Source: Acidisarcina sp.
GTDB taxonomy: Bacteria > Acidobacteriota > Terriglobia > Terriglobales > Acidobacteriaceae
Direction: 5' to 3'
Assembly (NCBI GenBank): GCA_035539175.1
Contig: DATLIY010000007.1
Location: 1,245,759 to 1,309,758 of the forward strand
DNA length: 64,000 bases
Shown here: positions 6,628 to 64,000 of the stretch, in pieces
Position numbering within the stretch: the first letter of the stretch is position 1
Layout: every line of letters starts with the position of its first letter
Notes under the pieces: generated by a model
What the model was told of the DNA's origin: nothing
Databases searched by the model: none
The model's input: the letters and a program-made list of their open reading frames with translations, nothing else
Translations under genes and position numbers: made by a program

Positions 6628-6752
6628 GCAGAGTTCAACCGGCTGCGTTCCGGCGACCCCGTCCCCAGCCTGCACTCGAGGCGGTGATTTCGTGACTGCA
6701 GCTTTACAATGGTAGATGGGGCATATTGGCCCCGGACAGGACGAGAAACAGA

Positions 6753-7130
6753 ATGTACGAAGTAACAGTCGAGGCAGGATTCTCCTCCGGCCACTTCCTG
6801 AGGAATTATCGCGGCAAGTGCGAGAATCCGCATGGACATAACTACAAGGTTCAAGTCACGCTTCGCGGCCCGGCGCTGGATGAAGCGGGGCTGTTGCTGG
6901 ACTTCAAGCTGCTGAAACAGGTCATGCGCCCGGTGATTGACTACCTCGATCACCAGATGATCAACGACCTTCCCCCGTTTACCGAGATCAATCCCTCGGC
7001 GGAAAATCTGGCGCGCTACTTTTACGACGAGACGAACAAGCAGCTCCACGAAATGACCTCGGGCCGCGTCACCGTGAAGGACTGCACCATCTACGAAACC
7101 GACACCACCACTGCCACGTATTACGAGTAA
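6753..7130 (+). CDS. queD: 6-carboxy-5,6,7,8-tetrahydropterin synthase QueD
   Basis: MYEVTVEAGFSSGHFLRNYRGKCENPHGHNYKV... is the typical QueD/PTPS N-terminus with a His triad. Start set at Met10 of ORF 6726..7130. Confidence 0.9.
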   Translation: MYEVTVEAGFSSGHFLRNYRGKCENPHGHNYKVQVTLRGPALDEAGLLLDFKLLKQVMRPVIDYLDHQMINDLPPFTEINPSAENLARYFYDETNKQLHEMTSGRVTVKDCTIYETDTTTATYYE

Positions 7131-7135
7131 GCCGC

Positions 7136-7816: not shown

Positions 7817-7888
7817 TCCCGCCAGAAAACTCCATATACCTGCTGTGCCGTGGTGCGCTGGCGCCTCGATCTGTCTACAATCGGAGCC

Positions 7889-9166
7889 ATGCCATCGGAT
7901 TCGGCACCCTCGCTTGTTTTGAGCTTCGCGGAAGCCTCCAGCGTGATCCGCGAACACGCCGCGCAATGGGCCGCCGGACGCGCTATTGCCGAAGAAGTCG
8001 TTCCCCTGACATCGGCTGCAGGCCGGGTACTTGCCGAGCCGGTTTTTGCCGATCGCGACCAGCCCCCCTTTGACCGCTCCACACGCGATGGCTTTGCCTG
8101 CCGCGCAGCCGAGTTGATGACGCAGCCATTGCGGGTAACAGGCATGGTCAGGGCAGGAGAAATCTGGGCAGACCCGCTCGAACCCGGGGCAGCGGTTGAG
8201 ATCATGACCGGTGCGCCGCTGCCATCCGGCGCCGATTGCGTGGTGATGATCGAGCATACGCAGCGGGATGGATCGAGCCTGCGGCTGGCAGGCGGGCGAA
8301 GGCTTCTCCACGGGGAAAACGTGGTTCCCGCCGCCAGCGAAGCGGCAAAAGGAGAGCTGCTGCTGCCGCCCGGCACACGCATCGGCGCGCGACACATCGC
8401 AATAGCCGCATCCTGCGGATATGCAACCCTGAAAGTCTTCCGCAAGCCGCTGGTTGCGATTCAGGCCACGGGGGATGAGCTCGTCGAAATCGGCGAGACT
8501 CCGCGGCCATTCCAGATTCGTAACTCTAACAGTTACTCATTGGCCGCACAGGTTAGGCAGAGCGGAGCAGAGGCCCTCATCCAACCCATCCTGCGCGACA
8601 ACTGCGAGGCAACCCAGGCGGCCATCGCGCACGCCATCCATGATTGCGGAGCCGATCTACTGATACTCTCCGGCGGCGTCTCGATGGGCCGATTCGATTT
8701 TGTCGAAGAGGCGCTGAAGAACCTTGGCGCGGAGTTCTTCTTCACCGGCGCGAAGATCCAGCCCGGCAAGCCCATCGTCTTCGGACGCCTGCCGCAGACC
8801 GGCTCGCATAGCCCTACGTACTTTTTCGGACTCCCCGGCAATCCTGTCTCGACGATGGTCACCTTCACGCTCTTTGTCCACCCGCTGTTGAACGCGCTGG
8901 CGGGGGAAACCGGCGGAGCCCCGCGCTTTGCCCTGGCTCATCTGGACGGCGAGTTGACCCTCAAACCAGGACTCACCCGCTTCCTACCTGCAACGCTGGA
9001 AACGCAGAATCTCTCGCCCAGCGTGCGGCCAATCCGCTGGCAGGGCTCCGGTGATCTTGCGGGGAATGCCAAGGCAAATTGCTATGTTGTCGTTCCCGGC
9101 GATCTCGACGAAGGCCGGGAAACGATGCAGACGGGCGAAATGGTGAGCGTTCTGCTGATAGGCTGA
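7889..9166 (+). CDS. moeA: molybdopterin molybdenumtransferase MoeA
   Basis: MoeA N, MoCF-binding and C domains: LILSGGVSMGRFDF, AKIQPGKPIVFG, LPGNPVST. Start taken at Met14 of ORF 7850..9166; 7850 is the alternative. Confidence 0.85.
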   Translation: MPSDSAPSLVLSFAEASSVIREHAAQWAAGRAIAEEVVPLTSAAGRVLAEPVFADRDQPPFDRSTRDGFACRAAELMTQPLRVTGMVRAGEIWADPLEPGAAVEIMTGAPLPSGADCVVMIEHTQRDGSSLRLAGGRRLLHGENVVPAASEAAKGELLLPPGTRIGARHIAIAASCGYATLKVFRKPLVAIQATGDELVEIGETPRPFQIRNSNSYSLAAQVRQSGAEALIQPILRDNCEATQAAIAHAIHDCGADLLILSGGVSMGRFDFVEEALKNLGAEFFFTGAKIQPGKPIVFGRLPQTGSHSPTYFFGLPGNPVSTMVTFTLFVHPLLNALAGETGGAPRFALAHLDGELTLKPGLTRFLPATLETQNLSPSVRPIRWQGSGDLAGNAKANCYVVVPGDLDEGRETMQTGEMVSVLLIG

Positions 9167-9170
9167 TGCC

Positions 9171-9650
9171 ATGGAAAAGCTCTCGCACTACACCGATTCC
9201 GGCAGCGCTCACATGGTGGACGTAAGCGCCAAGGCCGAGACACGGCGCGAGGCGGTGGCATCCGCCTTTGTTGCGCTCTCGCCTGCGGTATTGGAAGCGC
9301 TTCCCAGCAACGCCAAGGGCAATCCGCTGGAGGTTGCTCGTTTTGCCGGCATCCAGGCAGCCAAGAAGACCGCGGATCTCATCCCCATGTGTCACCCGCT
9401 GCCCCTCACGTTCCTCGATGTGGAAGCGACTGTCGTGCAGGGCGGCATTGCCATCCGAACTACCGCTGCTACCACTGCCGCTACGGGAGTGGAGATGGAG
9501 GCCCTTACCGCCGCCGCGGTCGCCGCCCTGACGGTCTACGACATGTGCAAGGCGCTCGACAAGGGGATCGAAATCCAGAGCATCGTGCTCGAAAAGAAAT
9601 CCGGGGGAAAGAGCGGCGACTACCTGCGCAGCAGCAAAGAACGCCGCTGA
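9171..9650 (+). CDS. moaC: cyclic pyranopterin monophosphate synthase MoaC
   Basis: SHYTDSGSAHMVDVSAKAETRREA...MCHPLPL...VYDMCKALDK are classic MoaC motifs. The gene starts 4 nt after the moeA stop. Confidence 0.9.
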   Translation: MEKLSHYTDSGSAHMVDVSAKAETRREAVASAFVALSPAVLEALPSNAKGNPLEVARFAGIQAAKKTADLIPMCHPLPLTFLDVEATVVQGGIAIRTTAATTAATGVEMEALTAAAVAALTVYDMCKALDKGIEIQSIVLEKKSGGKSGDYLRSSKERR

Positions 9651-9766
9651 CTCCAGTCCCGGAGCGGACCCTGCGGACCAATTTGGGGCCCTCACTTCTG
9701 CAAATACCTTTGACGTGTCTGATTTCCCCGCTTAGAGTGGCATGGAATCGTTTTCAAGGAGAGCTT

Positions 9767-10954
9767 GTGCGACGACTTTGCAGCCTGCTTGCCACCGTCC
9801 TTTTGACACCACTCATGCTGTCAGCTCAGACCACCAGGATTGCGGCCACTCCGCCCATGGGATGGAATAGCTGGAACTACTTCGCCGACAAAGTCGATGA
9901 CAAGTCAGTCCGCGATGCCGCCGATGCACTCGTCTCCACCGGCTTGCGGGACGCCGGCTATATCTATGTGAACATCGATGACACCTGGGAGGGAGAGCGC
10001 GACGCCCAGGGCATACTTCATACCAACAGCAAGTTTCCGGACATGAAGGCCCTGGCCGACTATGTCCACTCAAAGGGGCTGAAGATCGGCATCTACTCCT
10101 CCCCTGGACCGAAGACCTGCGCCGGGTATGCGGGCAGCTACAACCACGAAGACCAGGATGCGAAGATGTACGCCGAATGGGGCATCGACTATCTCAAGTA
10201 CGATCTCTGCAGCTACATCCCCGACGTCATGCAGAAGCAGGCCCCGGGCGACTTTGAGAAGCAGATGGCCCTGATGCATGAAGCGTATGCAAAGATGCAG
10301 CAGGCCCTTGCCAAGTCCGGCCGGCCTATTGTCTACAGCCTTTGCCAGTATGGCTGGGACGCGGTGTGGGAATGGGGACCGAAGGTGGGCGCCAACCTGT
10401 GGCGCACGACGGGAGACATCTCCCCTGACTTCGACCGCATGTCCGTCATCGGATTCGCGCAGGCCGGCCTGTCGAAGTTTGCCGCGCCCGGACACTGGAA
10501 CGATCCTGACATGCTCGAAGTGGGCAACGGCAAGATGAATCTGAACGAAAACCGAACCCACATGACGCTATGGGCCATGCTGGCGGCTCCCTTGCTGGCA
10601 GGCAACGATCTCTCGCATATGAAGCCGGAGATTCTTGAGATTCTGAAGAAAAAGGAAGTCCTTGCCATCGATCAGGATGCGCTCGGCGTGCAGGGAGATC
10701 GAGTCTATGCTGAAGGCCCCATCGAGATCTGGACGAAGCCGCTGAAGGACGGATCGAAGGCCGTGGCCATCTTCAACCGCGGAGATGTTCGCAGCAACGA
10801 ATACCCTGTCACCCTTCACTTCAAGGATATTGGCGTCTCCGGCCCGGTGAAGGCTCGCGACGTATGGGCAGACAAGGATCTGGGAAGGCTCACCGATGGC
10901 TCCAAATTCAAACCGGAGACCCACGGCGTCATCCTGCTCCTCGTCAGCAAATAG
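9767..10954 (+). CDS. secreted alpha-galactosidase, GH27 family
   Basis: GTG start preceded by AAGGAGAG. Signal-peptide-like VRRLCSLLATVLLTPLMLSAQ, then PPMGWNSWNYF...YIYVNIDDTWEG...GIDYLKYDLC, typical of GH27. The upstream part of ORF 9389.. overlaps moaC and is not credible. Confidence 0.85.
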   Translation: MRRLCSLLATVLLTPLMLSAQTTRIAATPPMGWNSWNYFADKVDDKSVRDAADALVSTGLRDAGYIYVNIDDTWEGERDAQGILHTNSKFPDMKALADYVHSKGLKIGIYSSPGPKTCAGYAGSYNHEDQDAKMYAEWGIDYLKYDLCSYIPDVMQKQAPGDFEKQMALMHEAYAKMQQALAKSGRPIVYSLCQYGWDAVWEWGPKVGANLWRTTGDISPDFDRMSVIGFAQAGLSKFAAPGHWNDPDMLEVGNGKMNLNENRTHMTLWAMLAAPLLAGNDLSHMKPEILEILKKKEVLAIDQDALGVQGDRVYAEGPIEIWTKPLKDGSKAVAIFNRGDVRSNEYPVTLHFKDIGVSGPVKARDVWADKDLGRLTDGSKFKPETHGVILLLVSK

Positions 10955-53961: not shown

Positions 53962-56730
53962 TTAGTTGAGATTCGAAGCAAGCGCCTCCGCCTCCTCTAC
54001 CCTGGCGGTTAGCTTGCCATTCCCTCGCTTCGCTTTACGGGCGGGATTCGCCGTTGCAACAGCGGTCTCCTCGACCTCAAGATCCGCCTGCTCGCAGAAG
54101 GGCCGGCCATAGAAGCTGTCGAGCAGGATGGTCCGAAACTCGCGGATCAGCGGGTAGCGAGGGTTGGCGCCGGTGCACTGGTCGTCGAAGGCGTCTACCG
54201 CGAGAGCATCCAGCCTGGCCAGAAATTCGGACTCCGATACGCCGGCATCCTGGATGCTGGCCGGGATCTCGAGTTCGCGTTTCAAGCCCTCAACCCATTG
54301 AATGAGGTTCTCAACCTGATCGTCCTTCGTGGCTCCGCCCAGGCCGAGGAACTGTGCGATCTCAGCGTAACGGCACTTCGCCTTGGGACGGTCGTATTGC
54401 GAGAAGGCTGCCTGCTTGGTCGGATTGTCATTGGCGTTATAGCGGATGACATTGCAGATCAGCAGAGCATTCGCTAATCCATGGGGCAGGTGGAAGGCTG
54501 CGCCGATCTTGTGCGCCATGGAGTGGCACGCGCCCAGGAAGGCGTTCGCAAAGGCGATGCCGGCCAGTGTTGCTGCGTTGTGCACCTTCTCCCGCGCCAC
54601 CGGATCCTTGGCCCCGTTCTTATACGACGAGGGCAGATACTCCTTGAGCAGCCTGAGAGCCTGCAGAGCCTGTCCATCGGAGTACTCATTGGCCATGATC
54701 GAGACATAGGCTTCCAATGCATGGGTCACAGCGTCGATGCCGCCAAAGGCGGTCAGCGATTTGGGAAGGTTCATCACCAGGTTCGGATCGATGATGGCCA
54801 TGTTCGGCGTCAGCTCATAGTCGGCGATCGGATACTTTTTGCCCGTCGCGTCGTCCGTCACCACGGCGAACGGAGTCACCTCCGAGCCTGTGCCTGAAGT
54901 CGTCGGTATGGCGATGAGCTTGGCCTTGAGACCCATCTTTGGAAATTTATAGATGCGCTTGCGGATGTCCATAAAGCGCAGAGCCAGGTCTTCGAAATCG
55001 ACCTCCGGATGCTCGTACATGACCCACGCGATCTTGGCCGCATCCATCGGCGAGCCACCGCCGAGAGCCACAATCACATCGGGCTGAAAAGTATTTGCTG
55101 CCTCCACGCACTTACGCACCGTGGAGAGGTTCGGGTCCGCCTCCACTTGGTAGAAGGTCTCCACCTCAAGGCCCAGCTTCTTTAGTTGCGCAATCAGGTC
55201 GTCGGCATAACCATTGCGGAAGAGGAAGTTGTCAGTCACCACCAGCGCCCGTTTTTTACCGGCGATCTCCTTCAGTGCCTCGGGCACGCAGCCGCGACGA
55301 AAGTAGATGGATCCCGGCAACTTGTGCCACAACATATTTTCTGCACGCATGGCGACCAATTTCTTGTTCAGTAGATGCTTCGGTCCCAGGTTCTCCGAGA
55401 TCGAATTGCCGCCCCAGCTTCCACACCCAAGCGTCAGGCTGGGCGACAGGCTGAAGTTGTAGAGATCGCCTATGCCGCCGTGAGACGAGGGCGTGTTGAT
55501 CAGGATGCGCGCCGTCTTCATCTGCTCGCCAAAGTAGGCAACACGATCCTTCCGCTGGTCCTGATCCGTGTAGAGCACCGAGGTGTGGCCGATGCCGCCA
55601 AGAGCCACCAACCTCGCCGCAATCGCAACCGCATCCTTAAAGTCTGCAGCACGATAGAGAGCGAGGATCGTCGATAGCTTCTCATGTGCGAACGGCTCCG
55701 CCGTAGTTGCATCGCTGACTTCGCCAATCAGCACTTTGGTCGTCGCGGGCACGCGGATCCCAGCCAGCGCAGCGATTTTGGTGGCAGCCTGCCCTACAAT
55801 CTTGCCGTTCACCGCGCCGTCTACAAGAATGATGTCGCGGACCGCGTCCAGTTCCCCACCCTGCAGAATATAACCACCGTGACGGGAGAAACGGCTGCGG
55901 ATCGATTCATAGATCGAGTCGACGGCGATCACCGCCTGCTCGGAGGCGCAGATCACGCCATTGTCGAAGGTCTTCGACATGAGGATCGATGCAATAGCGC
56001 GCTTCTGATCCGCCGTCTCGTCAATGACAACCGGAGTGTTGCCGGCGCCGACGCCAATAGCCGGGGTGCCCGAGGAGTAGGCGGCATGCACCATACCGGG
56101 GCCTCCCGTGGCGAGGATGAGCTTGATCTCCGGGTGGCGCATCAGCTGGTTGCTCAGTTCAACCGTCGGCTCGTCAATCCAGCCAATAATATCTTCCGGG
56201 GCTCCGGCTTCGACAGCAGCCTCAAGCACAAGCCGGGCAGCAATGCAGGTGCACTTTCGCGCTCGCGGATGGGGACTGATGATAATTCCATTGCGAGTCT
56301 TAAGGCTGATCAGCGTTTTGAAAATTGCTGTCGAGGTCGGATTCGTAGTTGGAATGATGCCGCAAAGAAGGCCCATCGACTCCGCCATGGTGATCGTGCC
56401 AGCCTCGTCGTCCTGGCTTAGAATGCCGCAGGTCTTCTCATCCTTGTACTTGTTGTAGATGTACTCGGAGGCAAAGTGATTTTTGATAACCTTGTCCTCG
56501 ACTACCCCCATCCCCGTCTCTTCTACCGCCAGTTCAGCAAGAGGAATGCGGGCATTGGCAGCAGCCAGAGCAGCGTTCCGAAAGATCTGGTCAACCTGCT
56601 TCTGCGAGAAGCCGGCAAACTTCTGTTGCGCGGCTTTGACGCGGAGGATAAGGGCATCCAGCTCCTCACTTGTGGTGACACGGTTTTCCTGCTTCTGGGT
56701 TGCTACTAGAAATGCCTCGAAATTTGTCAT
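53962..56730 (-). CDS. adhE: bifunctional acetaldehyde-CoA / alcohol dehydrogenase AdhE
   Basis: N-terminal acylating ALDH domain and C-terminal Fe-ADH domain (ALGGGSPMDAAK, HSMAHKIG). Start at Met25, preceded by GAGGAGAG. Confidence 0.9.
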   Translation of the reverse strand: MTNFEAFLVATQKQENRVTTSEELDALILRVKAAQQKFAGFSQKQVDQIFRNAALAAANARIPLAELAVEETGMGVVEDKVIKNHFASEYIYNKYKDEKTCGILSQDDEAGTITMAESMGLLCGIIPTTNPTSTAIFKTLISLKTRNGIIISPHPRARKCTCIAARLVLEAAVEAGAPEDIIGWIDEPTVELSNQLMRHPEIKLILATGGPGMVHAAYSSGTPAIGVGAGNTPVVIDETADQKRAIASILMSKTFDNGVICASEQAVIAVDSIYESIRSRFSRHGGYILQGGELDAVRDIILVDGAVNGKIVGQAATKIAALAGIRVPATTKVLIGEVSDATTAEPFAHEKLSTILALYRAADFKDAVAIAARLVALGGIGHTSVLYTDQDQRKDRVAYFGEQMKTARILINTPSSHGGIGDLYNFSLSPSLTLGCGSWGGNSISENLGPKHLLNKKLVAMRAENMLWHKLPGSIYFRRGCVPEALKEIAGKKRALVVTDNFLFRNGYADDLIAQLKKLGLEVETFYQVEADPNLSTVRKCVEAANTFQPDVIVALGGGSPMDAAKIAWVMYEHPEVDFEDLALRFMDIRKRIYKFPKMGLKAKLIAIPTTSGTGSEVTPFAVVTDDATGKKYPIADYELTPNMAIIDPNLVMNLPKSLTAFGGIDAVTHALEAYVSIMANEYSDGQALQALRLLKEYLPSSYKNGAKDPVAREKVHNAATLAGIAFANAFLGACHSMAHKIGAAFHLPHGLANALLICNVIRYNANDNPTKQAAFSQYDRPKAKCRYAEIAQFLGLGGATKDDQVENLIQWVEGLKRELEIPASIQDAGVSESEFLARLDALAVDAFDDQCTGANPRYPLIREFRTILLDSFYGRPFCEQADLEVEETAVATANPARKAKRGNGKLTARVEEAEALASNLN

Positions 56731-56854
56731 GCTCTCCTCTAATCTCTTGCCTGCTTTCGTTAGCAGTTGAAGGGTTGAAAGGGTGATAGGCGGGACAGCC
56801 ATCTCAGGCCGGCCGGTGGAGGGATGGTGTTGCCGTTCCTTTGGCAGCTCATCT

Positions 56855-56876
56855 ATTCGATAAAGTTATATCGATA
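56855..56876. promoter_or_regulatory. 22-nt palindromic element (plus strand ATTCGATAAAGTTATATCGATA) upstream of adhE
   Basis: Lies about 125-146 nt upstream of the adhE ATG (56730). Its reverse complement TATCGATATAACTTTATCGAAT differs at one position from the rex copy. Confidence 0.55.
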
Positions 56877-56916
56877 TCCACAGGACTGATGGTACCGGCA
56901 AGCGGCTGGAGAGACA

Positions 56917-56930
56917 GTGACAGCTATCAC
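56917..56930. promoter_or_regulatory. GTGA-N6-TCAC palindrome (Rex/CRP-type box) upstream of adhE
   Basis: In the adhE direction it reads tGTGATAGCTGTCACt. By my count it is 40 nt from the 22-nt element, the same spacing as at rex. Confidence 0.5.
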
Positions 56931-57074
56931 AGCCCGTCGAGTCTCTGACCTTGCGGCGCTTTTCTTGAGGTGTCTTTGCTCGAATTTGCTGGATTGGCTA
57001 ATATCGGATGCTGTCGGAATTTCGACTGGCGGCTTTCGAGCAATTCCAAATTTGTTCCACTAGACGGAGATGAA

Positions 57075-57305
57075 ATGGCTATCAGCTTTGCTACAGATAT
57101 CCGCCCGCTATTTCGTGATGGCGACGTTCAATGCATGGGAAACGCGGGAGTTCATCTCGATGACCATGCCTGGATGCGTGTGCCCGCCAATGCGCAAAGC
57201 GTCTATGAACAAGTATCCGCAGGTACGATGCCGCCTGATGCACCCTGGCCAACGGATCAAGTTTCGCTTTTCAAGAAGTGGATGGATGCGGGCTATCCGG
57301 CCTGA
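57075..57305 (+). CDS. small hypothetical protein (76 aa)
   Basis: ATG preceded by GGAG. Sequence MAISFATDIRPLFRDGDVQCM...GTMPPDAPWPTDQVSLFKKWMDAGYP looks like a conserved small soluble protein, but I cannot name a family. Confidence 0.45.
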   Translation: MAISFATDIRPLFRDGDVQCMGNAGVHLDDHAWMRVPANAQSVYEQVSAGTMPPDAPWPTDQVSLFKKWMDAGYPA

Positions 57306-57358
57306 ACAAGGCGGATACGGCTTCTAAAATCTCCTGGCTCGCGAGTATCGAACCGACT

Positions 57359-58291
57359 TTACCGCTTACTCCGAACTTTGCCCGTCACACGCGGTACGAG
57401 TTCGGGCGAAGAAGACAGGATAAAGCGGCGAAACGCTCCTGCATTGCCTATAGGCACTGGGCCGGCAGGATAGGCTAGCGAGAACATGCGGGACAATTGA
57501 ATCCCATGTACGCGCGCCAGCCGAAGCGTGCCTAAAGCGAGCTGGTTGCGTACTGCCCAGCGAGATACGAACGTTACGCCAAGCCCAGCCTCGACGGCGC
57601 TGAGCAGACCTTCCGTCGAGTCGAGTTCCATGATGGTTCTAAGTTCCTTCTTCCGGAGTCCGGCTTTTGCCAATGCCGCCTCAATCACGCGACGCGATCC
57701 CGAACCGAACTCCCGCATGAGCAAGGGCGCGCCTTTCAGCGCATCGATCTGGATTGTGTGCTCGGCCCATTCATGGCTGGCGGGTACAACCAGCACGATC
57801 TGGTCTTCCATAAAAGGTTCGATGTGAATATCCTTGCGTAACGCGGGACCCTCGATCATCGCCAATTGAATGCGGCGTGCAACCAGGGCGTCCAGCATTT
57901 CGTCTGTATTCCCGCTCACCGCAGAGATTGCGACACGCGGATGCTCGCGAAGAAATGCCGCAACGAGATTCGGCAAGACGTATTGTCCGATGGTTTGCGA
58001 TGCCCCGAGAGCTAACTTCCCAGCATGATTCCCGGCCGCACTGGTCACGGCTTCGTATGCTTCGTTCGAGATTGTTTTTAGATGCTCCGCATAAGGCTGC
58101 AGGCGCTCGCCAGCGGGTGTGAGCGTGATGCGCCCACCACTGCGATCGAACAGAGGTACGCCGAATTCGTCTTCGAGAGCTTTGATCTGCTGGGTAACGG
58201 CAGGTTGTGTCAAAAGTAGTTCTTCAGCAGCTCGACTGAAGTTGAGATGTCGCGCAACTGCCCGAAAAACTGTGATCCGGAAATTTTCCAT
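57359..58291 (-). CDS. LysR-family transcriptional regulator
   Basis: Start at Met27. MENFRITVFRAVARHLNFSRAAEELLLTQPAVTQQIKALEDEFGVPLFDR is a canonical LysR HTH. Divergent from the yeiH-like gene, as with the E. coli yeiE/yeiH pair. Confidence 0.85.
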   Translation of the reverse strand: MENFRITVFRAVARHLNFSRAAEELLLTQPAVTQQIKALEDEFGVPLFDRSGGRITLTPAGERLQPYAEHLKTISNEAYEAVTSAAGNHAGKLALGASQTIGQYVLPNLVAAFLREHPRVAISAVSGNTDEMLDALVARRIQLAMIEGPALRKDIHIEPFMEDQIVLVVPASHEWAEHTIQIDALKGAPLLMREFGSGSRRVIEAALAKAGLRKKELRTIMELDSTEGLLSAVEAGLGVTFVSRWAVRNQLALGTLRLARVHGIQLSRMFSLAYPAGPVPIGNAGAFRRFILSSSPELVPRVTGKVRSKR

Positions 58292-58453
58292 CTTCGCTCC
58301 AACCTTAGCCTCATGATTGTCGCAGAATATCCGGGCCGAAGCTGCACGCTTTAGCCACTGCAGCCGCAACTATAAGAAAGACGAATCCTCTATAAGAATT
58401 TCCGCTTGGACTGCGCCTGTCCTTCGCAAAGATACTGGCCGCAGGAGTGAGGA

Positions 58454-59377
58454 TTGAATCCGAAGACAGTCTTTTTTATTGGAATCATTTTGACCGCAAG
58501 CGGCATGATCTCTCCATCGATTGCCCTGCTGGCAGGCATCGTATATGGCTTTGCTTTCGCTCATCCCTATCACCTGGAGAGCAGAAACCTCTCCCGCTTT
58601 CTTTTGCAGGCGGCTGTCGTCGGACTTGGCTTCGGGATGAACCTGCATCAAGTAGTACGCGTCGGCAAAGCAGGAGTTCTTTACACTGCGATCAGCATCT
58701 CCGCCGCCATGCTGCTTGGCTGGCTTCTGGGACGAGTGTTGCATGTTAGCCGAAAAGCAGCATTTCTGATCACGGTGGGAACCGCTATTTGCGGAGGAAG
58801 CGCAATTGCCGCGATTGCGCCCATCACCAATCCGGATGAGGAAGAGATGGCGATGTCACTCGGCACCGTATTCATCCTGAACGCAGTGGCATTACTGCTC
58901 TTCCCCATGATTGGCCTTGCATTGCACATGAGCCAGGTCCAGTTCGGACTCTGGTCTGCGTTAGCCATTCACGACACAAGTTCTGTCGTGGGTGCCGCCG
59001 CCAGGTACGGACCACAAGCATTGCAGATCGGAACAACTGTCAAGCTGGCAAGAGCTCTTTGGATTGTTCCATTGGCCATGCTCACCGCATTCGCGAGGAA
59101 GAGCAACGCACGGATTCGGTGGCCCTGGTTTATTCTGCTTTTCTGTCTCGCTGCCGTGGCTAACACATACCTTCCGGAGGCGGACAGGCTCTACCTAATC
59201 CTCAATCGCCTTGGGGGTCGTGGATTGACGGTCGTTCTTTTCCTGATTGGAACCGGACTATCGAAAGATACTCTCCGCCGTGTTGGCATCCGGCCATTTC
59301 TGCAAGGTATTGGCCTGTGGGCAATCATTGCGATCGCATCACTGCTTGCGATTCGTGCCGGATGGATCACTCTATAA
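58454..59377 (+). CDS. yeiH: YeiH/UPF0324-family membrane protein (putative sulfate-exporter family)
   Basis: TTG start 6 nt after AGGAG. 307-aa polytopic protein with TVGTAICGGSAIAA and TVKLARALWIVP blocks, typical of UPF0324. Confidence 0.75.
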   Translation: MNPKTVFFIGIILTASGMISPSIALLAGIVYGFAFAHPYHLESRNLSRFLLQAAVVGLGFGMNLHQVVRVGKAGVLYTAISISAAMLLGWLLGRVLHVSRKAAFLITVGTAICGGSAIAAIAPITNPDEEEMAMSLGTVFILNAVALLLFPMIGLALHMSQVQFGLWSALAIHDTSSVVGAAARYGPQALQIGTTVKLARALWIVPLAMLTAFARKSNARIRWPWFILLFCLAAVANTYLPEADRLYLILNRLGGRGLTVVLFLIGTGLSKDTLRRVGIRPFLQGIGLWAIIAIASLLAIRAGWITL

Positions 59378-60428: not shown

Positions 60429-60475
60429 TGGTGGACCTGGTCGGGATCGAACCGACGACCTCTTCCATGCCATGG
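60429..60475 (-). other. 3' fragment (anticodon loop to CCA) of a tRNA-Ala(GGC)-like gene; putative att repeat
   Basis: The minus strand reads CC-ATGGCAT-GGAAG-AGGTC-GTCGG-TTCGATC-CCGAC-CAGGTCC-A-CCA. The T arm, acceptor 3' strand and CCA are perfect, but no matching 5' acceptor strand (GGACCTG), D arm or 5' anticodon-stem strand lies upstream. Coordinates cross-checked against the ORF 60133..60603 translation. Confidence 0.7.
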
Positions 60476-60596
60476 TGAGCATTGGGCCGCAAGTTATAGA
60501 CGGTACAGCACTTACTAACCGGTATAACCGGCAAAAACGGCACAATTGGCACTATTTGCTGCCAAAATGCTGCCAAATTTTGCCCAGCGGGCCAAT

Positions 60597-60619
60597 GGGC
60601 TGACTGTGTGGGTCAGCCC
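60597..60619 (-). terminator. hairpin just downstream of the DUF3883-like gene
   Basis: GGGCTGAC-tgtgtgg-GTCAGCCC, 8 nt after the stop at 60628. The T-run lies on the plus-strand side only, so its function is uncertain. Confidence 0.4.
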
Positions 60620-60627
60620 GATTTTCT

Positions 60628-61464
60628 TCAGTCGGATAAACGTCGTAGGGTGATCTTAGTGGTCTGCCATTCGCCAGAAGCTTGATCTTGCGGAATGTGC
60701 ATTCTCAGCTCGTCTGGTGTGATCTCAATCAGTTCCTCCTCCGGCAAAAGCCAGATATGGAAAAAATAGTGCGGTACGCGCTCGATGGCAGTATTCCATT
60801 CATTGCGTGTCAGAAATATCTCGCGTGAGTCGCGTGCTGAGGACTTGACCTCAATAAGCTTGGCGATAGGCTCCACGACGCCGATGTCGTAGGACTGCAC
60901 ATCGTAGCCAGCGGAGTTATCATCAAGTGCGACCCAGCGCACAGTATTGGTTATCCCCAAACCCGAGAGTCGCCGATTTTCGTAGTCGATGGTGAGCTGC
61001 TCCGCCCGACGTCCTTGCTGCTGCTTTCTGTCATCGTCTGCCCGGCGCGCTTTGCGTGAGAGTTCGTCCCACCATTCCCTTATGACAGTGGAAGGGGTTC
61101 TGGCAAATAATCCAGCAGCCTCAAAACATTGTTCTTCGTTGGTACTCAAAGCAGTCCGAATACGCTCCCGCCCCCACGGGGAGAGCCTTACCCACCAGGG
61201 TCGTGCTTCCTCGATAAAACTCCAGATGGCATCTCGGAAGAGAGCTGTCGCGTCTTGAAGATGCTCATCCCGTGCGCTCGTCAAGCCACTCAACACCACG
61301 GCCATTTCATAGTCGTGATAGGCATCATCGGGAGAGATGCGCTTTAGCGTGGAAATAATCTCCGTGAGCGGTACCTGACTGTGGAGTGCAGCATACCGGC
61401 GGATAGCGAGCAGCCCATTGAGCGCGCTCATCGACAGTATGCGTTCTCGTTCGAGAACTGACAC
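60628..61464 (-). CDS. two-domain protein: unknown helical N-domain + DUF3883-like PD-(D/E)xK nuclease C-domain
   Basis: The C-terminal 120 aa read GRRAEQLTIDYENRRL...WVALDDNSAGYDVQSYD...LIEVKSS...FLTRNEWNTA...YFFHIW, which is the DUF3883 pattern (GYD ... IEVK ... NE ... Y.F..V). Starts 5 nt after the SNF2 gene stop. Confidence 0.7.
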   Translation of the reverse strand: MSVLERERILSMSALNGLLAIRRYAALHSQVPLTEIISTLKRISPDDAYHDYEMAVVLSGLTSARDEHLQDATALFRDAIWSFIEEARPWWVRLSPWGRERIRTALSTNEEQCFEAAGLFARTPSTVIREWWDELSRKARRADDDRKQQQGRRAEQLTIDYENRRLSGLGITNTVRWVALDDNSAGYDVQSYDIGVVEPIAKLIEVKSSARDSREIFLTRNEWNTAIERVPHYFFHIWLLPEEELIEITPDELRMHIPQDQASGEWQTTKITLRRLSD

Positions 61465-61469
61465 AGCTA

Positions 61470-63371
61470 TTATTCCTCCACACCGCTGTCAGGTGAGAAT
61501 TCCTTGCCCTCTAGCTCCTCAATGAGATCAATGAGATCGGCCAACTCAATCCCATAATCCGTTGGATCCGCCGCATTCTCTTCATCGAGCGCGATTTCAT
61601 GGAGGTCTGGATCATCAAGTAACTGCTGCAAGCCGCGGAGTTTAACTGCCAATCGTCGGTTGACCGAGCGGTCAATGCTACCGATCCCCTGTGGAGCTAC
61701 CGATTGAAAGATGTGAATATTCGTTTCGGTTCCTGGTGCTAGACCAAGGCGGTGAATACGATCTATGGATTGCAGATAATGCGTGGTGTTGTAGCTACGG
61801 TCGAGATAGATCGCCTCATGGCAGACTTCATGCAGGCTGATACCTTCGCCAGCAGCGGCAGGATTGGCGATCATCACTGAGCAGGCGGAATCTTCGTGAA
61901 AGCGCCGGATACGACTTTCACGTGTGTCAGCGCCTTCCTGTTCGCCGGTAGGAATGGCACCGTAAAGCGTCACTGGATTTAACTCTGAAAGCAGCCGTTC
62001 CATTTCGAGGATTGTATTGGTAAAGATCGTCCAGATAACGCATTTACGGTTATTGCGCGCCAATTGGCGTGCCAGCGCCGCTACCGCCTGCATCTTTTGC
62101 GATGGGCCTTCTTCCATCACCTTGTCGATAATCCCCGAACCTATCGAAGAAATATCGGAGAATTCTGCCATTGATCGCAAAGCCGCAATAGGGTTGACCG
62201 ATAGTTGCAGAAGCGTCATCACGGAGCGTCGCGCACCATAAATATCCACGCGCCGGTCGTGCTTAAGAGAGCTGAGCTGCTTCAATGCTTCGCTGCGGAC
62301 AATGGAGTAAAGTGCAAGTTGGCTGGGACTCATCTCGACATGCTTGAATTCACGATGTGGCTTCGGAAGACCAAGCTCACTCTTGGTTGTTCTCACATAA
62401 AGATTGCCCAGTACCTGCCTGGGTGCGGTCCCCTGAGCTATCCTTCCACCCAGCCCTGCACCTGGCCAGAGGAAGTCCAACTGAGATTGCAAATCCGATG
62501 GGGATTGAGGCATCGGAGTTCCACTCAGAATATCCCGCCGTATCGGCAAAGTGCAGATGCCAAGCAATACAGATCCCCGCTGAGACGAATAGCCTGCTTT
62601 CATGCGGTGCGATTCGTCAAGCACCAAATGAACGGGATGGCGTGCGAGATAGGTCGCAATAACGCTCGGAATCCGAATTAGCTGGTCATAGGTAATCAAA
62701 AAACGTGTCGCACCAGAATCCAATGTGCGAATGATCGCGTCCTCACCACCCGTCAAGGTCGTGAACGGCTCCGCGCTACCGTCTGTTGCACCTTCATCAA
62801 TGCAGTCGCGGACGGCGTCCTGCCAAGCCATAAATGCGTTTTTAGGAGCAACAACGAGCAGGTGTTGTCCCGGTTTCCGGGTAAGGATATCTAACGCAAG
62901 CGTAACGGTCGTCTTGCCAGATCCGGGTACTGAGAAATTCGCGCCGTTGGCGACTGAGAGCAGGTACCCGATATCTCGATTTTGGAATGGCTTGAGGGCG
63001 CGTTTAGTGAAGGAGAGGGCGCGTAGGCGGGTGTCGATCTCATCTCCGCCGAGCGTCGCGGTCAACGTGCCGCGTGCTTCTCTTACTGCCTTGTAGTTCC
63101 GTACAAACTCATTGATCTTCTCTTTCGCGAGCCCGATGGGCCGTAAGACGAACCCTTGTTGGCGCTGAAGCGGAGCAAACTCACGCACGAGCGAAAGCGC
63201 CGTTACCCAGGGCACATTCAATTTATTCAAGGCCAGCTCGTAATCATTCTCGATAGCCATCGCACGCTGAACGACGCGCTCCCAAATGGCATCTTCGCTT
63301 ACGGCCTTCAGTTCGAAACTACCTCGCAGGGTCGAAGCACTGTACGTGATTTCGATCTCAGCCATAGCCAA
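61470..63371 (-). CDS. SNF2/Rad54-family helicase-like ATPase
   Basis: Walker A SVPGSGKTT, motif II HLVLDESHRMK, motif III LSGTPMPQSPSDL, helicase-C lobe VMIANPAAAGEGISL and motif VI YLQSIDRIHRLG. The N-terminal approximately 125 aa and the acidic C-tail are unassigned. Confidence 0.8.
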   Translation of the reverse strand: MAMAEIEITYSASTLRGSFELKAVSEDAIWERVVQRAMAIENDYELALNKLNVPWVTALSLVREFAPLQRQQGFVLRPIGLAKEKINEFVRNYKAVREARGTLTATLGGDEIDTRLRALSFTKRALKPFQNRDIGYLLSVANGANFSVPGSGKTTVTLALDILTRKPGQHLLVVAPKNAFMAWQDAVRDCIDEGATDGSAEPFTTLTGGEDAIIRTLDSGATRFLITYDQLIRIPSVIATYLARHPVHLVLDESHRMKAGYSSQRGSVLLGICTLPIRRDILSGTPMPQSPSDLQSQLDFLWPGAGLGGRIAQGTAPRQVLGNLYVRTTKSELGLPKPHREFKHVEMSPSQLALYSIVRSEALKQLSSLKHDRRVDIYGARRSVMTLLQLSVNPIAALRSMAEFSDISSIGSGIIDKVMEEGPSQKMQAVAALARQLARNNRKCVIWTIFTNTILEMERLLSELNPVTLYGAIPTGEQEGADTRESRIRRFHEDSACSVMIANPAAAGEGISLHEVCHEAIYLDRSYNTTHYLQSIDRIHRLGLAPGTETNIHIFQSVAPQGIGSIDRSVNRRLAVKLRGLQQLLDDPDLHEIALDEENAADPTDYGIELADLIDLIEELEGKEFSPDSGVEE

Positions 63372-63386: not shown

Positions 63387-64000
63387 TTACGCCGTCGGAT
63401 TCGCTTTAGCTGGGTCAGGCAACTCACTCTTTAGTTTTTGCGCTCGTGCTATCACGCTATCGAGCTGCGCGGCAATGGCGGCATGGGTGGACGGGTCTGC
63501 TGTGGAAATGTCGATCTCAAGTAGCTTGGTATTGGCATCGCGCGCTGCTTTAAGAGCGGCCTGACCGCGTTTCTCGTCCTGTTCGGCTGAGCGGATGCTC
63601 TCGCAAACTGAGATTAGTTCCGACGCGGTCTCGTCCCGGCGGGACGGATCGTCGAACACCTCTATAAGAGGTTTGTAGCTTGTGCCTTCGTTCTCTTCAT
63701 CGAGATCGATGTCCAGCGAACCAGTATCTTCCTGCTTGTCGGTCGGTGGTGCTGTCATGTCAACACCGAGCCGCGCGGCAAGTGCCTCCGCTACATCCCC
63801 TGATTTCTTGCCGAAGCTGAAATTGAACGCATACGCGCGAACCCCTAGTGATTTAGAGTTGTCCTGGATCGTAAAAGCGATGCGACGGCTCAGTTCGAGC
63901 TCCTCACCGGTCTTATCTTTCAGAAGCCGAGCCATATCTCCGAAAAGTTGCTGGGCTCCGCTTTCAACCTGCTGGTAATCTTCCGGTGTGCGCTTCCAAT
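63387..64000 (-). CDS. hypothetical protein, C-terminal part only (frame open to the window edge)
   Basis: The listed ORF starts at Met 63935, but the frame upstream (WKRTPEDYQQVESGAQQLFGD-M...) has no stop up to nt 64000. Contains an acidic linker (DIDLDEENEG) and a coiled-coil-like tail. The stop lies 15 nt before the SNF2 gene start. Confidence 0.6.
   Translation of the reverse strand, partial: WKRTPEDYQQVESGAQQLFGDMARLLKDKTGEELELSRRIAFTIQDNSKSLGVRAYAFNFSFGKKSGDVAEALAARLGVDMTAPPTDKQEDTGSLDIDLDEENEGTSYKPLIEVFDDPSRRDETASELISVCESIRSAEQDEKRGQAALKAARDANTKLLEIDISTADPSTHAAIAAQLDSVIARAQKLKSELPDPAKANPTA

What the first reader, a model, noticed from the sequence alone, without database searches (positions are those of the whole stretch)
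60628..63371. SNF2-family helicase plus DUF3883-like PD-(D/E)xK nuclease in a tight operon on a low-GC island: candidate uncharacterised defence-type module
Seen in sequence: three co-directional minus-strand ORFs are separated by only 15 nt (63387/63371) and 5 nt (61470/61464). The 633-aa product carries the SNF2/Rad54 motif set: Walker A SVPGSGKTT, motif II LVLDESHRMK, motif III LSGTPMPQSPSDL, C-lobe ANPAAAGEGISL and QSIDRIHRLG. Its first approximately 125 aa and its acidic tail match nothing I recognise. The 278-aa product ends in GRRAEQLTIDYENRRL...GYDVQSYD...LIEVKSS...FLTRNEWNTA...YFFHIW, the pattern of the DUF3883 restriction-endonuclease-fold domain (D ... E-x-K). Its approximately 150-aa helical N-half is also unrecognisable to me. 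Established knowledge: translocase/helicase plus PD-(D/E)xK nuclease pairs on tRNA-linked islands are the typical make-up of anti-phage and anti-plasmid systems. SNF2 proteins occur, for example, in class 1 DISARM. Inference: none of the partner genes that define named systems are present inside the window (no methyltransferase, DUF1998, PLD or PglZ). This is therefore either an undescribed combination or the tail of a larger system whose first genes lie beyond nt 64000.
Basis: partly seen in the sequence, partly recalled or inferred. Interest (0 to 1): 0.75.

Follow-up and report, generated by a model that had tools for sequence, protein, structure and literature searches.

The report
Five-gene restriction system, window shows tail
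The helicase and nuclease genes are real, but they are the last two genes of a widespread, apparently undescribed five-gene DNA-methylation-based defence operon, and its nuclease carries the only nearby mutation in a classic restriction-deficient laboratory strain of Paracoccus denitrificans.

Summary
Window 61470-63371(-) encodes an intact SNF2 ATPase. Window 60628-61464(-) encodes a DUF3883/NOV_C PD-(D/E)xK nuclease. They are not a two-gene module. The third ORF runs off the window. The same genome, found on a longer public contig, shows one tight operon: RHH regulator, SPPY-type DNA methyltransferase, 154-aa BglII-fold protein, 439-aa ParB/KorB-like protein, SNF2, NOV_C.

The five core genes keep this order in 41 of 44 informative species genomes. 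In metagenome contigs anchored on the BglII-like gene, the neighbours are present in 67/67, 69/69, 55/55 and 44/47 loci. Flanks vary: conjugative elements, a prophage, defence islands, tRNA edges. The BglII-like protein always has Q-x-Q where BstYI and BamHI have the catalytic Glu. A second subtype on plasmids uses an unrelated REase-fold protein that has also lost its Glu, with a Dcm methylase nearby.

Paracoccus denitrificans carries the cassette. PD1222, selected in 1989 for lost restriction, differs from wild type by one base in 16.8 kb: Ser207Phe beside the nuclease's E-V-K. No PADLOC or NCBIfam model, and no paper I could search, covers the ParB-like component or the cassette.

Best reading: a new multi-subunit restriction-modification system.

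The parts
60429..60480 (-). tRNA 3'-end remnant (T-arm GTCGG/TTCGATC/CCGAC, acceptor strand, CCA). Probable att repeat marking the edge of the integrated element.
   Evidence: Read directly from the sequence. ARAGORN and Rfam find no intact tRNA. The 25-mer occurs once, at L001 11012-11036. In seven related loci the cassette abuts an intact tRNA gene.
60596..60620 (.). 10-bp G+C-rich hairpin just past the NOV_C stop codon. Possible operon end.
   Evidence: Consensus scan. The T-run is on the + strand only, and hit counts are near shuffle expectation, so this is weak evidence.
60628..61464 (-). Gene 5: 278-aa protein with a helical N-domain (about aa 1-170, unassigned) and a C-terminal NOV_C/DUF3883 PD-(D/E)xK nuclease (D188, E205-V-K207, S208).
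   Evidence: Pfam NOV_C E 4e-13. D, E-x-K and G151/R152/E155 are invariant in 28 homologues. IEVKS is present in 48/48 loci. The AF2 model with Foldseek matches Hjc, D212 and SPARDA nucleases. The Paracoccus orthologue carries S207F in strain PD1222.
61470..63371 (-). Gene 4: 633-aa SNF2-family ATPase/translocase with an unassigned N-terminal region of about 125 aa and a conserved acidic C-terminal tail.
   Evidence: Pfam SNF2-rel_dom and Helicase_C. Walker A G[AS]GKT, DE[SA]H and QSIDRxHRLG are each present in 46/46 homologues. The best PDB sequence matches are Swr1, DDM1 and BRG1 ATPase lobes.
63387..64000 (-). 3' part (last 204 codons) of gene 3: a 439-aa ParB/KorB-like protein. The window holds part of its helical middle domain, an acidic disordered linker and the C-terminal coiled coil. 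The N-terminal ParB/Srx domain with the NGNRRLAA box lies beyond nt 64000.
   Evidence: No stop upstream in frame. The full gene is L001 6759-8078. The window's last 4 kb are identical to L001. AF2 pLDDT is 86.8, and the top Foldseek hits are KorB, Spo0J, ParB and Noc at prob 1.0.

Best explanation
The two genes are the effector end of a five-gene, methylation-based restriction system carried as cargo by mobile elements. An optional small regulator sits in front.

Shown:
- The operon is methyltransferase (beta-class, SPPY motif), a BglII/BstYI-fold protein, a ParB/KorB-like protein, an SNF2 ATPase and a DUF3883 nuclease.
- The genes are tightly packed and mostly overlap by 4 nt.
- The set is inherited as a unit across phyla.

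Inferred mechanism:
1. The methyltransferase marks host DNA at a short GATC-core site, probably as N4-methylcytosine.
2. The BglII-fold protein has lost the metal-binding Glu (Q-x-Q). It acts as a non-cutting reader of unmethylated sites.
3. The ParB-like protein has an intact GxxRR nucleotide box, an HTH domain and a coiled-coil tail. It is loaded or switched at those sites as an NTP-gated clamp or adaptor.
4. The SNF2 motor, together with the DUF3883 nuclease, translocates on the marked DNA and nicks or cuts it. This pair is the split equivalent of the fused helicase-nuclease HmaA.

The restriction phenotype depends on the DUF3883 nuclease. This is suggested by the single S207F change in the restriction-deficient Paracoccus denitrificans PD1222.
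For: Linkage:
- All five genes are in the same order in 41 of 44 genome loci with enough flank. These span Terriglobia, Alpha-, Beta- and Gammaproteobacteria and Planctomycetota.
- In 80 metagenome loci anchored on the BglII-like gene, the methylase is upstream in 67/67, ParB-like is next in 69/69, SNF2 in 55/55 and NOV_C in 44/47.
- One variant has the methylase moved to the 3' end and keeps all five genes.
- No flanking gene family is shared by more than 3 of about 42 loci, so the cassette boundaries are the unit.

Active sites:
- SNF2, NOV_C, methylase and ParB-box motifs are intact in all copies.
- The BglII-like protein has Q-x-Q in 43/43 loci and in 119/120 database homologues. In profile alignments this aligns with E128-x-Q130 of BstYI and E111-x-E113 of BamHI.

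Independent replay: four alphaproteobacterial plasmids carry ParB-like, SNF2 and DUF3883 behind an unrelated type II REase-family protein. In that protein I-E-L-K has become I-I-Q-K. A Dcm/Vsr pair lies nearby in 3 of the 4. Stand-alone relatives that keep E-L-K sit in plain Dcm-REase pairs.

Context: conjugative elements, a prophage, a defence island and tRNA edges.

Genetics:
- PD1222 differs from DSM 413 (9,433 nt compared) and from HAMBI_2443 (16,837 nt compared) by exactly one base: NOV_C TCC to TTC, S207F, next to E-V-K.
- A 50,000-nt control region has 0 differences.
- PD1222 was selected for raised conjugation frequency and lost an nGATCn modification (PMC11473606, PMC3907716, PMC10878069).

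Precedents: the HmaA NOV_C nickase is needed for defence (PMC11232893). The ParB-like ATPase DpdB works in the Dpd modification-restriction system (PMC10164549).
Against: - No experiment on this cassette exists. The roles of reader, clamp and motor are inferred from folds and motifs.
- The ParB assignment rests on structure prediction (Foldseek E about 3e-3, prob 1.0), one motif and distant annotated relatives. Pfam gives only ddrB-ParB at E 0.027, and a PDB sequence search finds no ParB.
- The methylase's closest solved relative is the N6-adenine enzyme M.RsrI, so the N4C call rests on the SPPY motif alone.
- PD1222 is reported to have lost modification too, yet its methylase gene is unchanged. 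Either methylation needs the whole complex, or another locus is responsible.
- The genome-wide list of PD1222 mutations was not available.
- A distant trio-only locus (L063) and a variant without the BglII-like gene (L051) show that the last three genes can exist without this front end.
- No avoidance of BglII or BamHI sites is seen in the host window.
Confidence: 0.62

Rival explanations
1. Two separate systems travel together. One is an ordinary, active type II restriction-modification pair (methylase plus BglII-like enzyme). The other is an independent ParB-like/SNF2/DUF3883 helicase-nuclease defence of the HmaA or Zorya-ZorD kind that senses something other than methylation.
For: The trio occurs without the BglII-like gene in L063 and L051. 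On plasmids the trio sits behind a different REase family. HmaA alone defends without its methylase (PMC11232893). NCBI names the small protein 'BglII/BstYI family type II restriction endonuclease'.
Against: The Q-x-Q BglII-like gene was never found without the trio: 69/69, 55/55 and 44/47. Gene junctions overlap by 4 nt. The catalytic Glu is missing in both unrelated REase-fold partners, while stand-alone relatives keep it. A permuted locus still keeps all five genes. If S207F in NOV_C is causal, a separate active REase should have kept PD1222 restricting.
Confidence: 0.15
2. The cassette serves the mobile element rather than defending the host. It could be an establishment or anti-restriction set (methylase plus SNF2 plus ParB, as in polyvalent proteins of phages and conjugative elements). 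It could also be a maintenance or addiction module in which the ParB-like protein handles element DNA.
For: The cassette sits on conjugative elements, plasmids and a prophage. In two loci it lies beside ArdC-N/MPTase and KlcB-type leading-region genes. The methylase/SNF2/ParB combination is typical of injected polyvalent proteins (PMC5512222). The ParB-like fold resembles partition and KorB proteins.
Against: No ParA partner is called in the neighbourhoods annotated with Pfam. The position within elements is not fixed, and flanks are unrelated. Copies also occur in a defence island next to AIPR, HipA and AAA_14 genes. A dedicated nuclease with an intact active site is always present. In Paracoccus the locus behaves as a barrier to incoming plasmids, if the SNP is causal (PMC11473606).
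Confidence: 0.1
3. The BglII-like protein is still the cutting enzyme and uses other residues. The ParB-like/SNF2/DUF3883 trio is an accessory that processes, amplifies or regulates cleavage. Examples would be degrading cut DNA or controlling methylation, in the way DpdB assists DpdA.
For: BglII and BstYI already tolerate Gln at the second position (alignment). The ParB-like ATPase DpdB is needed for modification, not restriction, in Dpd (PMC10164549). The reported loss of modification in PD1222 with an intact methylase gene hints at cross-talk.
Against: No conserved Asp lies upstream of Q-x-Q, and the first Glu is never present in about 160 sequences. The second subtype shows the same loss. 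In permuted and plasmid variants the ParB-like gene stays with the REase-fold, SNF2 and nuclease genes, while the methylase moves away.
Confidence: 0.1

Closest known systems
Hma / type-1 BREX-related system (HmaA = SNF2 helicase fused to a NOV_C/DUF3883 nuclease)
   Same: The effector chemistry is the same: an SNF2-family ATPase combined with a NOV_C PD-(D/E)xK nuclease. The nickase activity of that nuclease is required for anti-phage defence (PMC11232893). A methyltransferase gene is associated.
   Different: Here the helicase and nuclease are separate genes and match the HmaA profile only weakly (E 2e-6 and 5e-3). The partners are a beta-class N4/N6 methylase, a BglII-fold protein and a ParB-like protein, not a DUF1156 methylase and a DUF499 ATPase (PMC12839542).
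Type II restriction-modification of the BglII/BstYI/BamHI family
   Same: There is an adjacent methylase plus a small BglII-fold protein (Pfam Endonuc-BglII 31.3 bits, above the cut-off; BstYI E 1.4e-3 by profile). A GATC-core specificity is plausible, because wild-type Paracoccus DNA resists BamHI, Sau3A and MboI (PMC11473606).
   Different: The protein is 154 aa, against 203-223 aa. The catalytic Glu is invariably Gln and there is no conserved upstream Asp. The gene is never found without three further genes.
Class 1 DISARM and Dpd (multi-gene modification-restriction systems with SNF2-type helicases)
   Same: The logic is the same: modification enzyme plus SNF2-like motor plus nuclease. Dpd also contains a ParB-like NTPase, DpdB (PMC10164549).
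   Different: No DrmA, DrmB (DUF1998), PLD nuclease, DpdA transglycosylase or deazaguanine genes are present. Scores against DrmD and DpdE are far below the family cut-offs: 31 against 610 bits and 18 against 500 bits.
ParB/KorB/Noc CTP-dependent DNA clamps
   Same: The predicted N-terminal ParB/Srx domain plus HTH domain superposes on KorB, Spo0J, ParB and Noc. The G-x-R-R-x-x-A box is invariant. There is a C-terminal dimerisation-like coiled coil.
   Different: There is no ParA partner and no known loading site. No Pfam ParB model passes threshold. The gene is embedded in a restriction operon. Nucleotide specificity and clamp behaviour are untested.
Type I and type III restriction enzymes
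   Same: The division of labour is the same: a separate site reader, methylase, ATP motor and PD-(D/E)xK nuclease acting away from the recognition site. This is a functional analogy, by inference.
   Different: The motor is SNF2 rather than HsdR or Res. There is an extra ParB-like subunit.

Membership tests
Hma (HmaABC) | Single protein of about 1150 aa with the SNF2 helicase fused to a C-terminal NOV_C nuclease | tested here: not met
   There are two genes, 633 aa and 278 aa. PADLOC HmaA hits are partial only: E 2e-6 and 5e-3.
Hma (HmaABC) | DUF1156 methylase (HmaB) and DUF499 ATPase (HmaC) in the locus | tested here: not met
   The methylase is Pfam N6_N4_Mtase. No DUF499 or DUF1156 gene lies within 10 kb in L001.
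Class 1 DISARM | DrmD equivalog score, plus DrmA, DrmB (DUF1998) and DrmC (PLD) | tested here: not met
   NCBIfam DISARM_DrmD scores 31 bits against a cut-off of 610. No DUF1998 or PLD gene is in the neighbourhood.
Type II R-M, BglII/BstYI family | BglII-fold protein passing the Pfam threshold, next to a DNA methyltransferase | tested here: met
   Endonuc-BglII scores 31.3 bits (cut-off 26). N6_N4_Mtase has E 1e-53, and the genes overlap by 4 nt.
Type II R-M, BglII/BstYI family | Catalytic Asp ... Glu-x-Gln/Glu metal site | tested here: not met
   Q82-x-Q84 aligns with BstYI E128-x-Q130 and BamHI E111-x-E113. The motif is Q-x-Q in 43/43 loci and 119/120 database proteins, with no conserved Asp upstream.
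ParB/KorB/Noc clamps | ParB/Srx N-domain followed by an HTH DNA-binding domain | tested here: met
   Foldseek hits are 8qa9 KorB, 1vz0 Spo0J, 6t1f ParB and 7ng0 Noc. For the KorB, Spo0J and ParB hits prob is 1.0, the target-normalised TM-score is 0.51-0.59 and 199-277 columns align; the Noc hit is weaker (prob 0.98, TM 0.37). The model pLDDT is 86.8.
ParB/KorB/Noc clamps | GxxRxxA nucleotide-binding box | tested here: met
   N-G-N-R-R-L-[AS]-A is present in 44/44 loci and 112/120 database homologues.
ParB/KorB/Noc clamps | CTP binding and hydrolysis, loading at a specific site, sliding | not testable with these tools
   Biochemistry is needed. The sequence-level match to ParB models is sub-threshold.
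BREX / Zorya / Dpd | PglZ plus BrxC; ZorA/ZorB; DpdA transglycosylase | tested here: not met
   None is present among the called genes of L001, L055, L059, L065 or L066. ZorD and DpdE hits cover only the shared helicase lobe.

The most novel reading that the evidence does not exclude
This is a new class of restriction-modification enzyme. It licenses a ParB-family NTP-gated clamp, which recruits an SNF2 motor carrying a DUF3883 nuclease. In vivo methylation itself depends on the assembled complex, which would explain the 'pleiotropic' loss of restriction and nGATCn modification in P. denitrificans PD1222 from one S207F change. It would be the first link between ParB-type clamps and innate immunity. 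The same engine has been coupled at least twice to different methylase and dead-REase front ends.
Probability: 0.3. Interest if true: 0.85.

Novelty: new variant of a known kind. Interest (0 to 1): 0.7.

Why it matters
It would add a widespread multi-subunit restriction system to the known repertoire. The BglII-like component forms about 1000 protein clusters at 90% identity. The ParB-like component has 466 representatives at 50% identity with E <= 1e-30. It is carried by conjugative elements, plasmids and prophages in soil and marine bacteria.

It shows dead type II endonucleases recruited twice, independently, as specificity subunits. It also puts a ParB/KorB-like protein inside an immune operon.

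It gives a concrete, testable answer to a question from 1989: which genes form the restriction barrier of Paracoccus denitrificans, and what was mutated in the standard laboratory strain PD1222. A 2024 paper still calls the key enzymes 'unclear' (PMC11473606).

On the practical side, current pipelines label the cassette as a simple type II pair plus 'hypothetical', 'DEAD/DEAH helicase' and 'DUF3883' proteins.

Tried and rejected
1. An apparent methylase-BglII-like fusion protein (L067) looked like Rosetta-stone evidence. The methylase C-terminus is in another frame and SNF2 is in four pieces, so this is a frameshifted or decayed locus or a noisy assembly. I did not use it.
2. Palindrome avoidance in the host window: AGATCT, GGATCC and GATC are not notably depleted. 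Uninformative at 60 kb.
3. Promoter and terminator scans: counts are near shuffle expectation. Only a hairpin after NOV_C is worth noting.
4. Sequence-level PDB search with the ParB-like profile returned only coiled-coil noise. The assignment rests on fold.
5. Phage collections: no NOV_C relative in GenBank phages, and one cassette in IMG/VR. It is not typically phage-borne.
6. tRNA and Rfam searches of the window found nothing intact.
7. A conserved sixth gene was sought in the flanks and not found. Upstream regulators differ: RHH in Terriglobia, HTH_3 in Paracoccus.
8. Literature searches for the gene combination found only Hma, BREX-related, Dpd and polyvalent-protein papers. de Vries 1989 and the 1998 Paracoccus review are not held.
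9. The DYTN-1 paper's pre-methylation test included methylase M2. It has the same length and chromosome position as the cassette methylase, but all 13 methylases helped, so the result is not discriminating.
Full report
CHECK OF THE OBSERVATION

- The NOV_C gene is 60628-61464(-), 278 aa.
- The SNF2 gene is 61470-63371(-), 633 aa.
- A third co-directional ORF ends at 63387.
- The gaps are 5 nt and 15 nt.

Every quoted motif is in the translations. Pfam supports both assignments above its curated cut-offs:
- SNF2-rel_dom, E 9e-11.
- Helicase_C, E 6e-7.
- NOV_C (PF13020, the former DUF3883), E 4e-13 over aa 154-239.

An AlphaFold2 model of the 278-aa protein has pLDDT 90.8. Its C-terminal domain matches archaeal Hjc resolvases, nuclease D212 and the SPARDA nucleases. 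Its N-half (about aa 1-170) is all-helical and has no PDB match. In 28 homologues D188 and E205-V-K207 are invariant.

Three points need correcting.
- The third ORF has no in-frame stop before the window end, so it is a fragment.
- ARAGORN and Rfam find no tRNA in the window. Only a tRNA 3'-end remnant lies about 150 nt below the NOV_C stop.
- The GC drop is modest. It is 0.536 against 0.588, though lower than every other 3.5-kb window.

WHAT LIES BEYOND THE WINDOW

The exact 278-aa protein is encoded on a 1.32-Mb public contig, ENA ERZ27250357 k141_58691. Its sequence (locus L001) is identical to the last 4 kb of the window. There the operon reads as follows.

| Gene | L001 coordinates | Size | Assignment |
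|---|---|---|---|
| RHH regulator | 5186-5389 | 67 aa | ribbon-helix-helix |
| Methyltransferase | 5386-6291 | 301 aa | N6_N4_Mtase, E 1e-53 |
| BglII-fold protein | 6288-6752 | 154 aa | Endonuc-BglII, 31.3 bits |
| Unannotated protein | 6759-8078 | 439 aa | ParB-like (see below) |
| SNF2 | 8100-9995 | 631 aa from the ATG at 8100; 633 aa from the TTG at 8094 | SNF2 ATPase |
| NOV_C | 10001-10837 | 278 aa | DUF3883 nuclease |

Window position 64000 corresponds to L001 7465, so the window holds the last 204 codons of the 439-aa gene. Upstream on the other strand lie an AbiEii/AbiEi pair and VirB3/VirB4 type IV secretion genes. Downstream is the tRNA remnant and then core genes. The cassette therefore sits at the edge of an integrative conjugative element.

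THE 439-AA PROTEIN

It has no Pfam, PADLOC or NCBIfam hit above threshold. The only Pfam hit is ddrB-ParB at E 0.027.

A model built from 41 homologues has pLDDT 86.8. By Foldseek it superposes on KorB, Thermus Spo0J, Caulobacter ParB and Noc. For the KorB, Spo0J and ParB hits the match has prob 1.0 over 199-277 columns and covers both the ParB/Srx N-domain and the HTH domain; the Noc hit is weaker (prob 0.98).

The box V-N-G-N-R-R-L-[AS]-A matches the GxxRxxA nucleotide box of ParB proteins (my knowledge of that family). It is invariant. The C-terminus is a long coiled coil behind a disordered acidic linker.

Distant relatives on plasmids are annotated 'ParB/RepB/Spo0J family partition protein'. 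UniRef calls close relatives 'ParB/Sulfiredoxin domain-containing protein'. A profile search of 1.8 billion representatives finds 466 at E <= 1e-30 and 1700 at E <= 1e-3, mostly full length.

THE UNIT IS FIVE GENES

A scan of one genome per species with the NOV_C family returned 51 loci. Of the 44 with enough upstream sequence, 41 carry all five genes in the same order: methylase, BglII-like, ParB-like, SNF2, NOV_C. Most junctions overlap by 4 nt. The hosts are Terriglobia, many Alphaproteobacteria, Beta- and Gammaproteobacteria and a planctomycete. The three exceptions are an isolated truncated NOV_C gene (L045), an insertion-disrupted copy (L047) and a variant (L051).

I made an independent sample anchored on the BglII-like gene in metagenome contigs. 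Where contig ends allowed a view:
- the methylase was immediately upstream in 67/67;
- ParB-like was downstream in 69/69;
- SNF2 was present in 55/55;
- NOV_C was present in 44/47, and the three misses have truncated SNF2 genes.

Even NOV_C homologues at about 25-37% identity sit in the same cassette. One locus has the methylase moved to the 3' end and keeps all five genes.

Flanks are unrelated between loci. No flank family is shared by more than 3 of about 42 loci. Among 149 flanking ORFs the recurrent Pfam families are integrases, transposases, AAA_21, HipA, AbiEii, resolvase and relaxase.

Annotated examples of context:
- a defence island with AIPR, HipA and AAA_14 genes;
- a conjugative element with ArdC, KlcB, Fic and RES genes;
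- a P2-like prophage of Bradyrhizobium ottawaense;
- an integrative element of Brevundimonas vesicularis.

Seven loci abut tRNA genes. Only one cassette was found in IMG/VR and none in GenBank phages.

STATE OF THE ACTIVE SITES

The following are intact.

| Component | Motif | Count |
|---|---|---|
| SNF2 | Walker A G[AS]GKT | 46/46 |
| SNF2 | DE[SA]H | 46/46 |
| SNF2 | QSIDRxHRLG | 46/46 |
| NOV_C | GYDV ... IEVKS | 48/48 for IEVKS |
| Methylase | SPPY | 44/44 |
| ParB-like | NGNRR | 44/44 |

The BglII-like protein is the exception. A profile of 20 members aligns K-D-D-L-A-F-Q-L-Q-T-G-N with three solved enzymes:
- BstYI K-D-R-V-A-I-E-V-Q-F-G-K;
- BamHI V-G-M-E-F-E-T-G-N;
- OkrAI A-L-E-W-E-T-G-N.

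By the chain numbering in that output, Q82 and Q84 lie under BstYI E128/Q130 and BamHI E111/E113. From the structural literature (my knowledge) these are the catalytic residues.

The motif is Q-x-Q in 43/43 loci and in 119/120 database homologues. It is never E-x-Q or E-x-E. No acidic residue is conserved 9-17 positions upstream. I infer that this protein binds DNA but cannot cut it.

The methylase's closest solved relative is the N6-adenine enzyme M.RsrI (E 7e-35). The invariant SPPY, where M.RsrI has DPPY, is the signature usually associated with N4-cytosine methylases (my knowledge). The target base therefore remains uncertain.

A SECOND SUBTYPE REPEATS THE PATTERN

The ParB-like query also hit four alphaproteobacterial plasmids at 31-34% identity: Rhizobium pRL11, Azospirillum TSH58_p07, Kozakia pKB14400_4 and a Mesorhizobium plasmid. 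In each, the gene is followed by a 'DEAD/DEAH box helicase' (SNF2 by Pfam) and a 'DUF3883 domain-containing protein'. It is preceded by an unrelated 280-288-aa protein.

That protein matches a PADLOC type II restriction-enzyme profile (E 3e-19). A Dcm C5-methylase with Vsr lies 1-5 kb away in three of the four plasmids.

Stand-alone relatives of this protein (28-31% identity) sit in ordinary Dcm-REase(-Vsr) pairs on other plasmids. In the alignment the stand-alone proteins have I-E-L-K-G-C, while the cassette versions have I-I-Q-K-G-C. If E-L-K is the (D/E)xK motif of that family, which is an inference, the Glu has again been lost.

So two non-homologous methylase plus REase-fold front ends are coupled to the same three-gene engine. 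Both have the REase-fold partner stripped of its Glu. This argues that the REase-fold protein is the specificity subunit of a larger enzyme.

A still more distant locus (L063) has only ParB-like, SNF2 and NOV_C behind an unknown 409-aa protein.

A GENETIC CLUE FROM A LABORATORY STRAIN

Paracoccus denitrificans carries the cassette on chromosome 2 (DSM 413, L017; HAMBI_2443, L054).

Strain PD1222 is the derivative of DSM 413 isolated by de Vries et al. [quoted passage not shown] The title is cited in PMC3907716 and PMC10878069. [quoted passage not shown]

A cluster look-up gave the following.
- The ParB-like protein (ABL71906) and SNF2 protein (ABL71907) of PD1222 are identical to those of DSM 413.
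- The NOV_C protein of PD1222 (ABL71908) is a different sequence from that of DSM 413.

The two NOV_C proteins differ at one residue, S207F.

At the DNA level PD1222 (CP000490.1 969304-986140, L155) differs by exactly one base from DSM 413 over 9,433 nt and from HAMBI_2443 over 16,837 nt. The change is C to T at codon 207 of NOV_C, TCC to TTC. It is the residue directly after the catalytic E-V-K, and it is Ser in 48/48 loci.

As a control, 50,000 nt of plasmid 1 are identical between PD1222 and HAMBI_2443. The background is therefore below about one difference per 67 kb, and a passenger mutation in this 837-nt gene is unlikely.

The wild-type Ser form is on a 1,730,123-nt contig, the length reported for chromosome 2 of the poorly transformable strain DYTN-1.

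This does not prove causality, because I could not obtain the genome-wide mutation list. One fact does not fit simply. The methylase gene and 3.3 kb upstream are unchanged in PD1222, although modification is reported lost. Either methylation in vivo needs the assembled complex, as in BREX (my knowledge), or another gene is responsible.

A GATC-core modification that blocks BamHI and Sau3A is what one would expect from a methylase paired with a BglII/BstYI/BamHI-family reader.

MECHANISM

I commit to the following, with steps marked.

Shown:
- the composition of the cassette, its linkage and its conservation;
- which active sites are intact and which is lost;
- the mobile-element and defence-island context.

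Inferred:
- The methylase marks self DNA at a GATC-core site.
- The dead BglII-fold dimer recognises unmethylated sites.
- The ParB-like protein is loaded or switched there as an NTP-gated clamp or adaptor. Precedents are ParB, KorB and Noc, and the ParB-like NTPases DpdB, DndB and SspE in modification-based defence (PMC10164549).
- The SNF2 motor with the DUF3883 nuclease then translocates and nicks or cuts the DNA. This is comparable to fused HmaA, whose NOV_C nickase is required for defence against T4 (PMC11232893).

In both the permuted variant and the plasmid subtype, the ParB-like gene stays between the REase-fold gene and SNF2 while the methylase moves. I therefore place the ParB-like protein in the restriction half.

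COMPARISON WITH KNOWN SYSTEMS

- It works most like Hma and like type I or type III enzymes. It is not Hma: the genes are split, the profile similarity is weak, and there is no DUF1156 methylase or DUF499 ATPase (PMC12839542).
- It is not DISARM, Dpd, BREX or Zorya. The hits cover only the helicase lobe, far below family cut-offs, and the defining partners are absent.
- It contains a BglII-family fold but fails that family's catalytic-site test.
- PADLOC 2.0 and NCBIfam have no model for the ParB-like protein. For NOV_C there are only domain-level hits: PDC-S36, PD-T4-1 and TmtA.
- Full-text searches found no description of the combination.
- I could not run DefenseFinder or consult REBASE.

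VERDICT

The finding is real and more interesting than stated, but its boundaries were wrong. It is the 3' end of a five-gene restriction-modification-like system that appears to be uncharacterised. I rate it a new variant of a known kind (multi-gene, motor-driven, modification-based defence), with interest 0.7.

Noticed in passing
L155 (P. denitrificans PD1222 CP000490.1) position 8620; compare L017 and L054: The restriction-deficient laboratory strain PD1222 differs from its wild-type parent by a single C-to-T change in 16.8 kb around the cassette. The change gives S207F next to the E-V-K of the DUF3883 nuclease. A 50-kb control region shows no differences.
   Followed up: yes
L068 (Rhizobium pRL11), L069 (Azospirillum), L070 (Kozakia), L071 (Mesorhizobium): A second cassette subtype on plasmids: an unrelated type II REase-family protein (E-L-K changed to I-Q-K), then ParB-like, SNF2 and DUF3883, with Dcm/Vsr (and a GIY-YIG nuclease) nearby in 3 of 4.
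   Followed up: yes
window 60429-60480 (-): A tRNA 3'-end remnant (T-arm, acceptor, CCA) without the rest of the gene, about 150 nt from the NOV_C stop. It is probably the att repeat at the edge of an integrative conjugative element. The intact tRNA is not in the window, and the public contig ends inside the element.
   Followed up: partly
L001 1-4820 (beyond window end): VirB4/VirB3 type IV secretion genes and an AbiEii/AbiEi toxin-antitoxin pair lie directly upstream of the operon on the opposite strand.
   Followed up: partly
L001 5186-5389; L155 2755-3000; L073 2177-2380: The small regulator in front of the methylase differs between lineages: RHH/CopG in Terriglobia, an 81-aa HTH_3/HTH_31 protein in Paracoccus, none detected in many others. 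This is reminiscent of controller proteins of type II systems.
   Followed up: no
all loci: The methylase is far more conserved between phyla (70-78% identity to the window genome's copy) than BglII-like (about 50%), SNF2 (about 55%), ParB-like (33-39%) or NOV_C (33-37%). This is unexplained.
   Followed up: no
L047, L071, L079, L080, L110, L067, L051: Decaying copies exist: an insertion splitting SNF2, IS481 between SNF2 and DUF3883, truncated SNF2 genes, and frameshifted loci.
   Followed up: partly
window 53962-59377: Core genes next to the island: an AdhE-like bifunctional aldehyde/alcohol dehydrogenase (946 aa, minus strand), a LysR regulator and a PF03601 membrane protein. GC is already lower here (0.56) than in the first 50 kb.
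   Followed up: no
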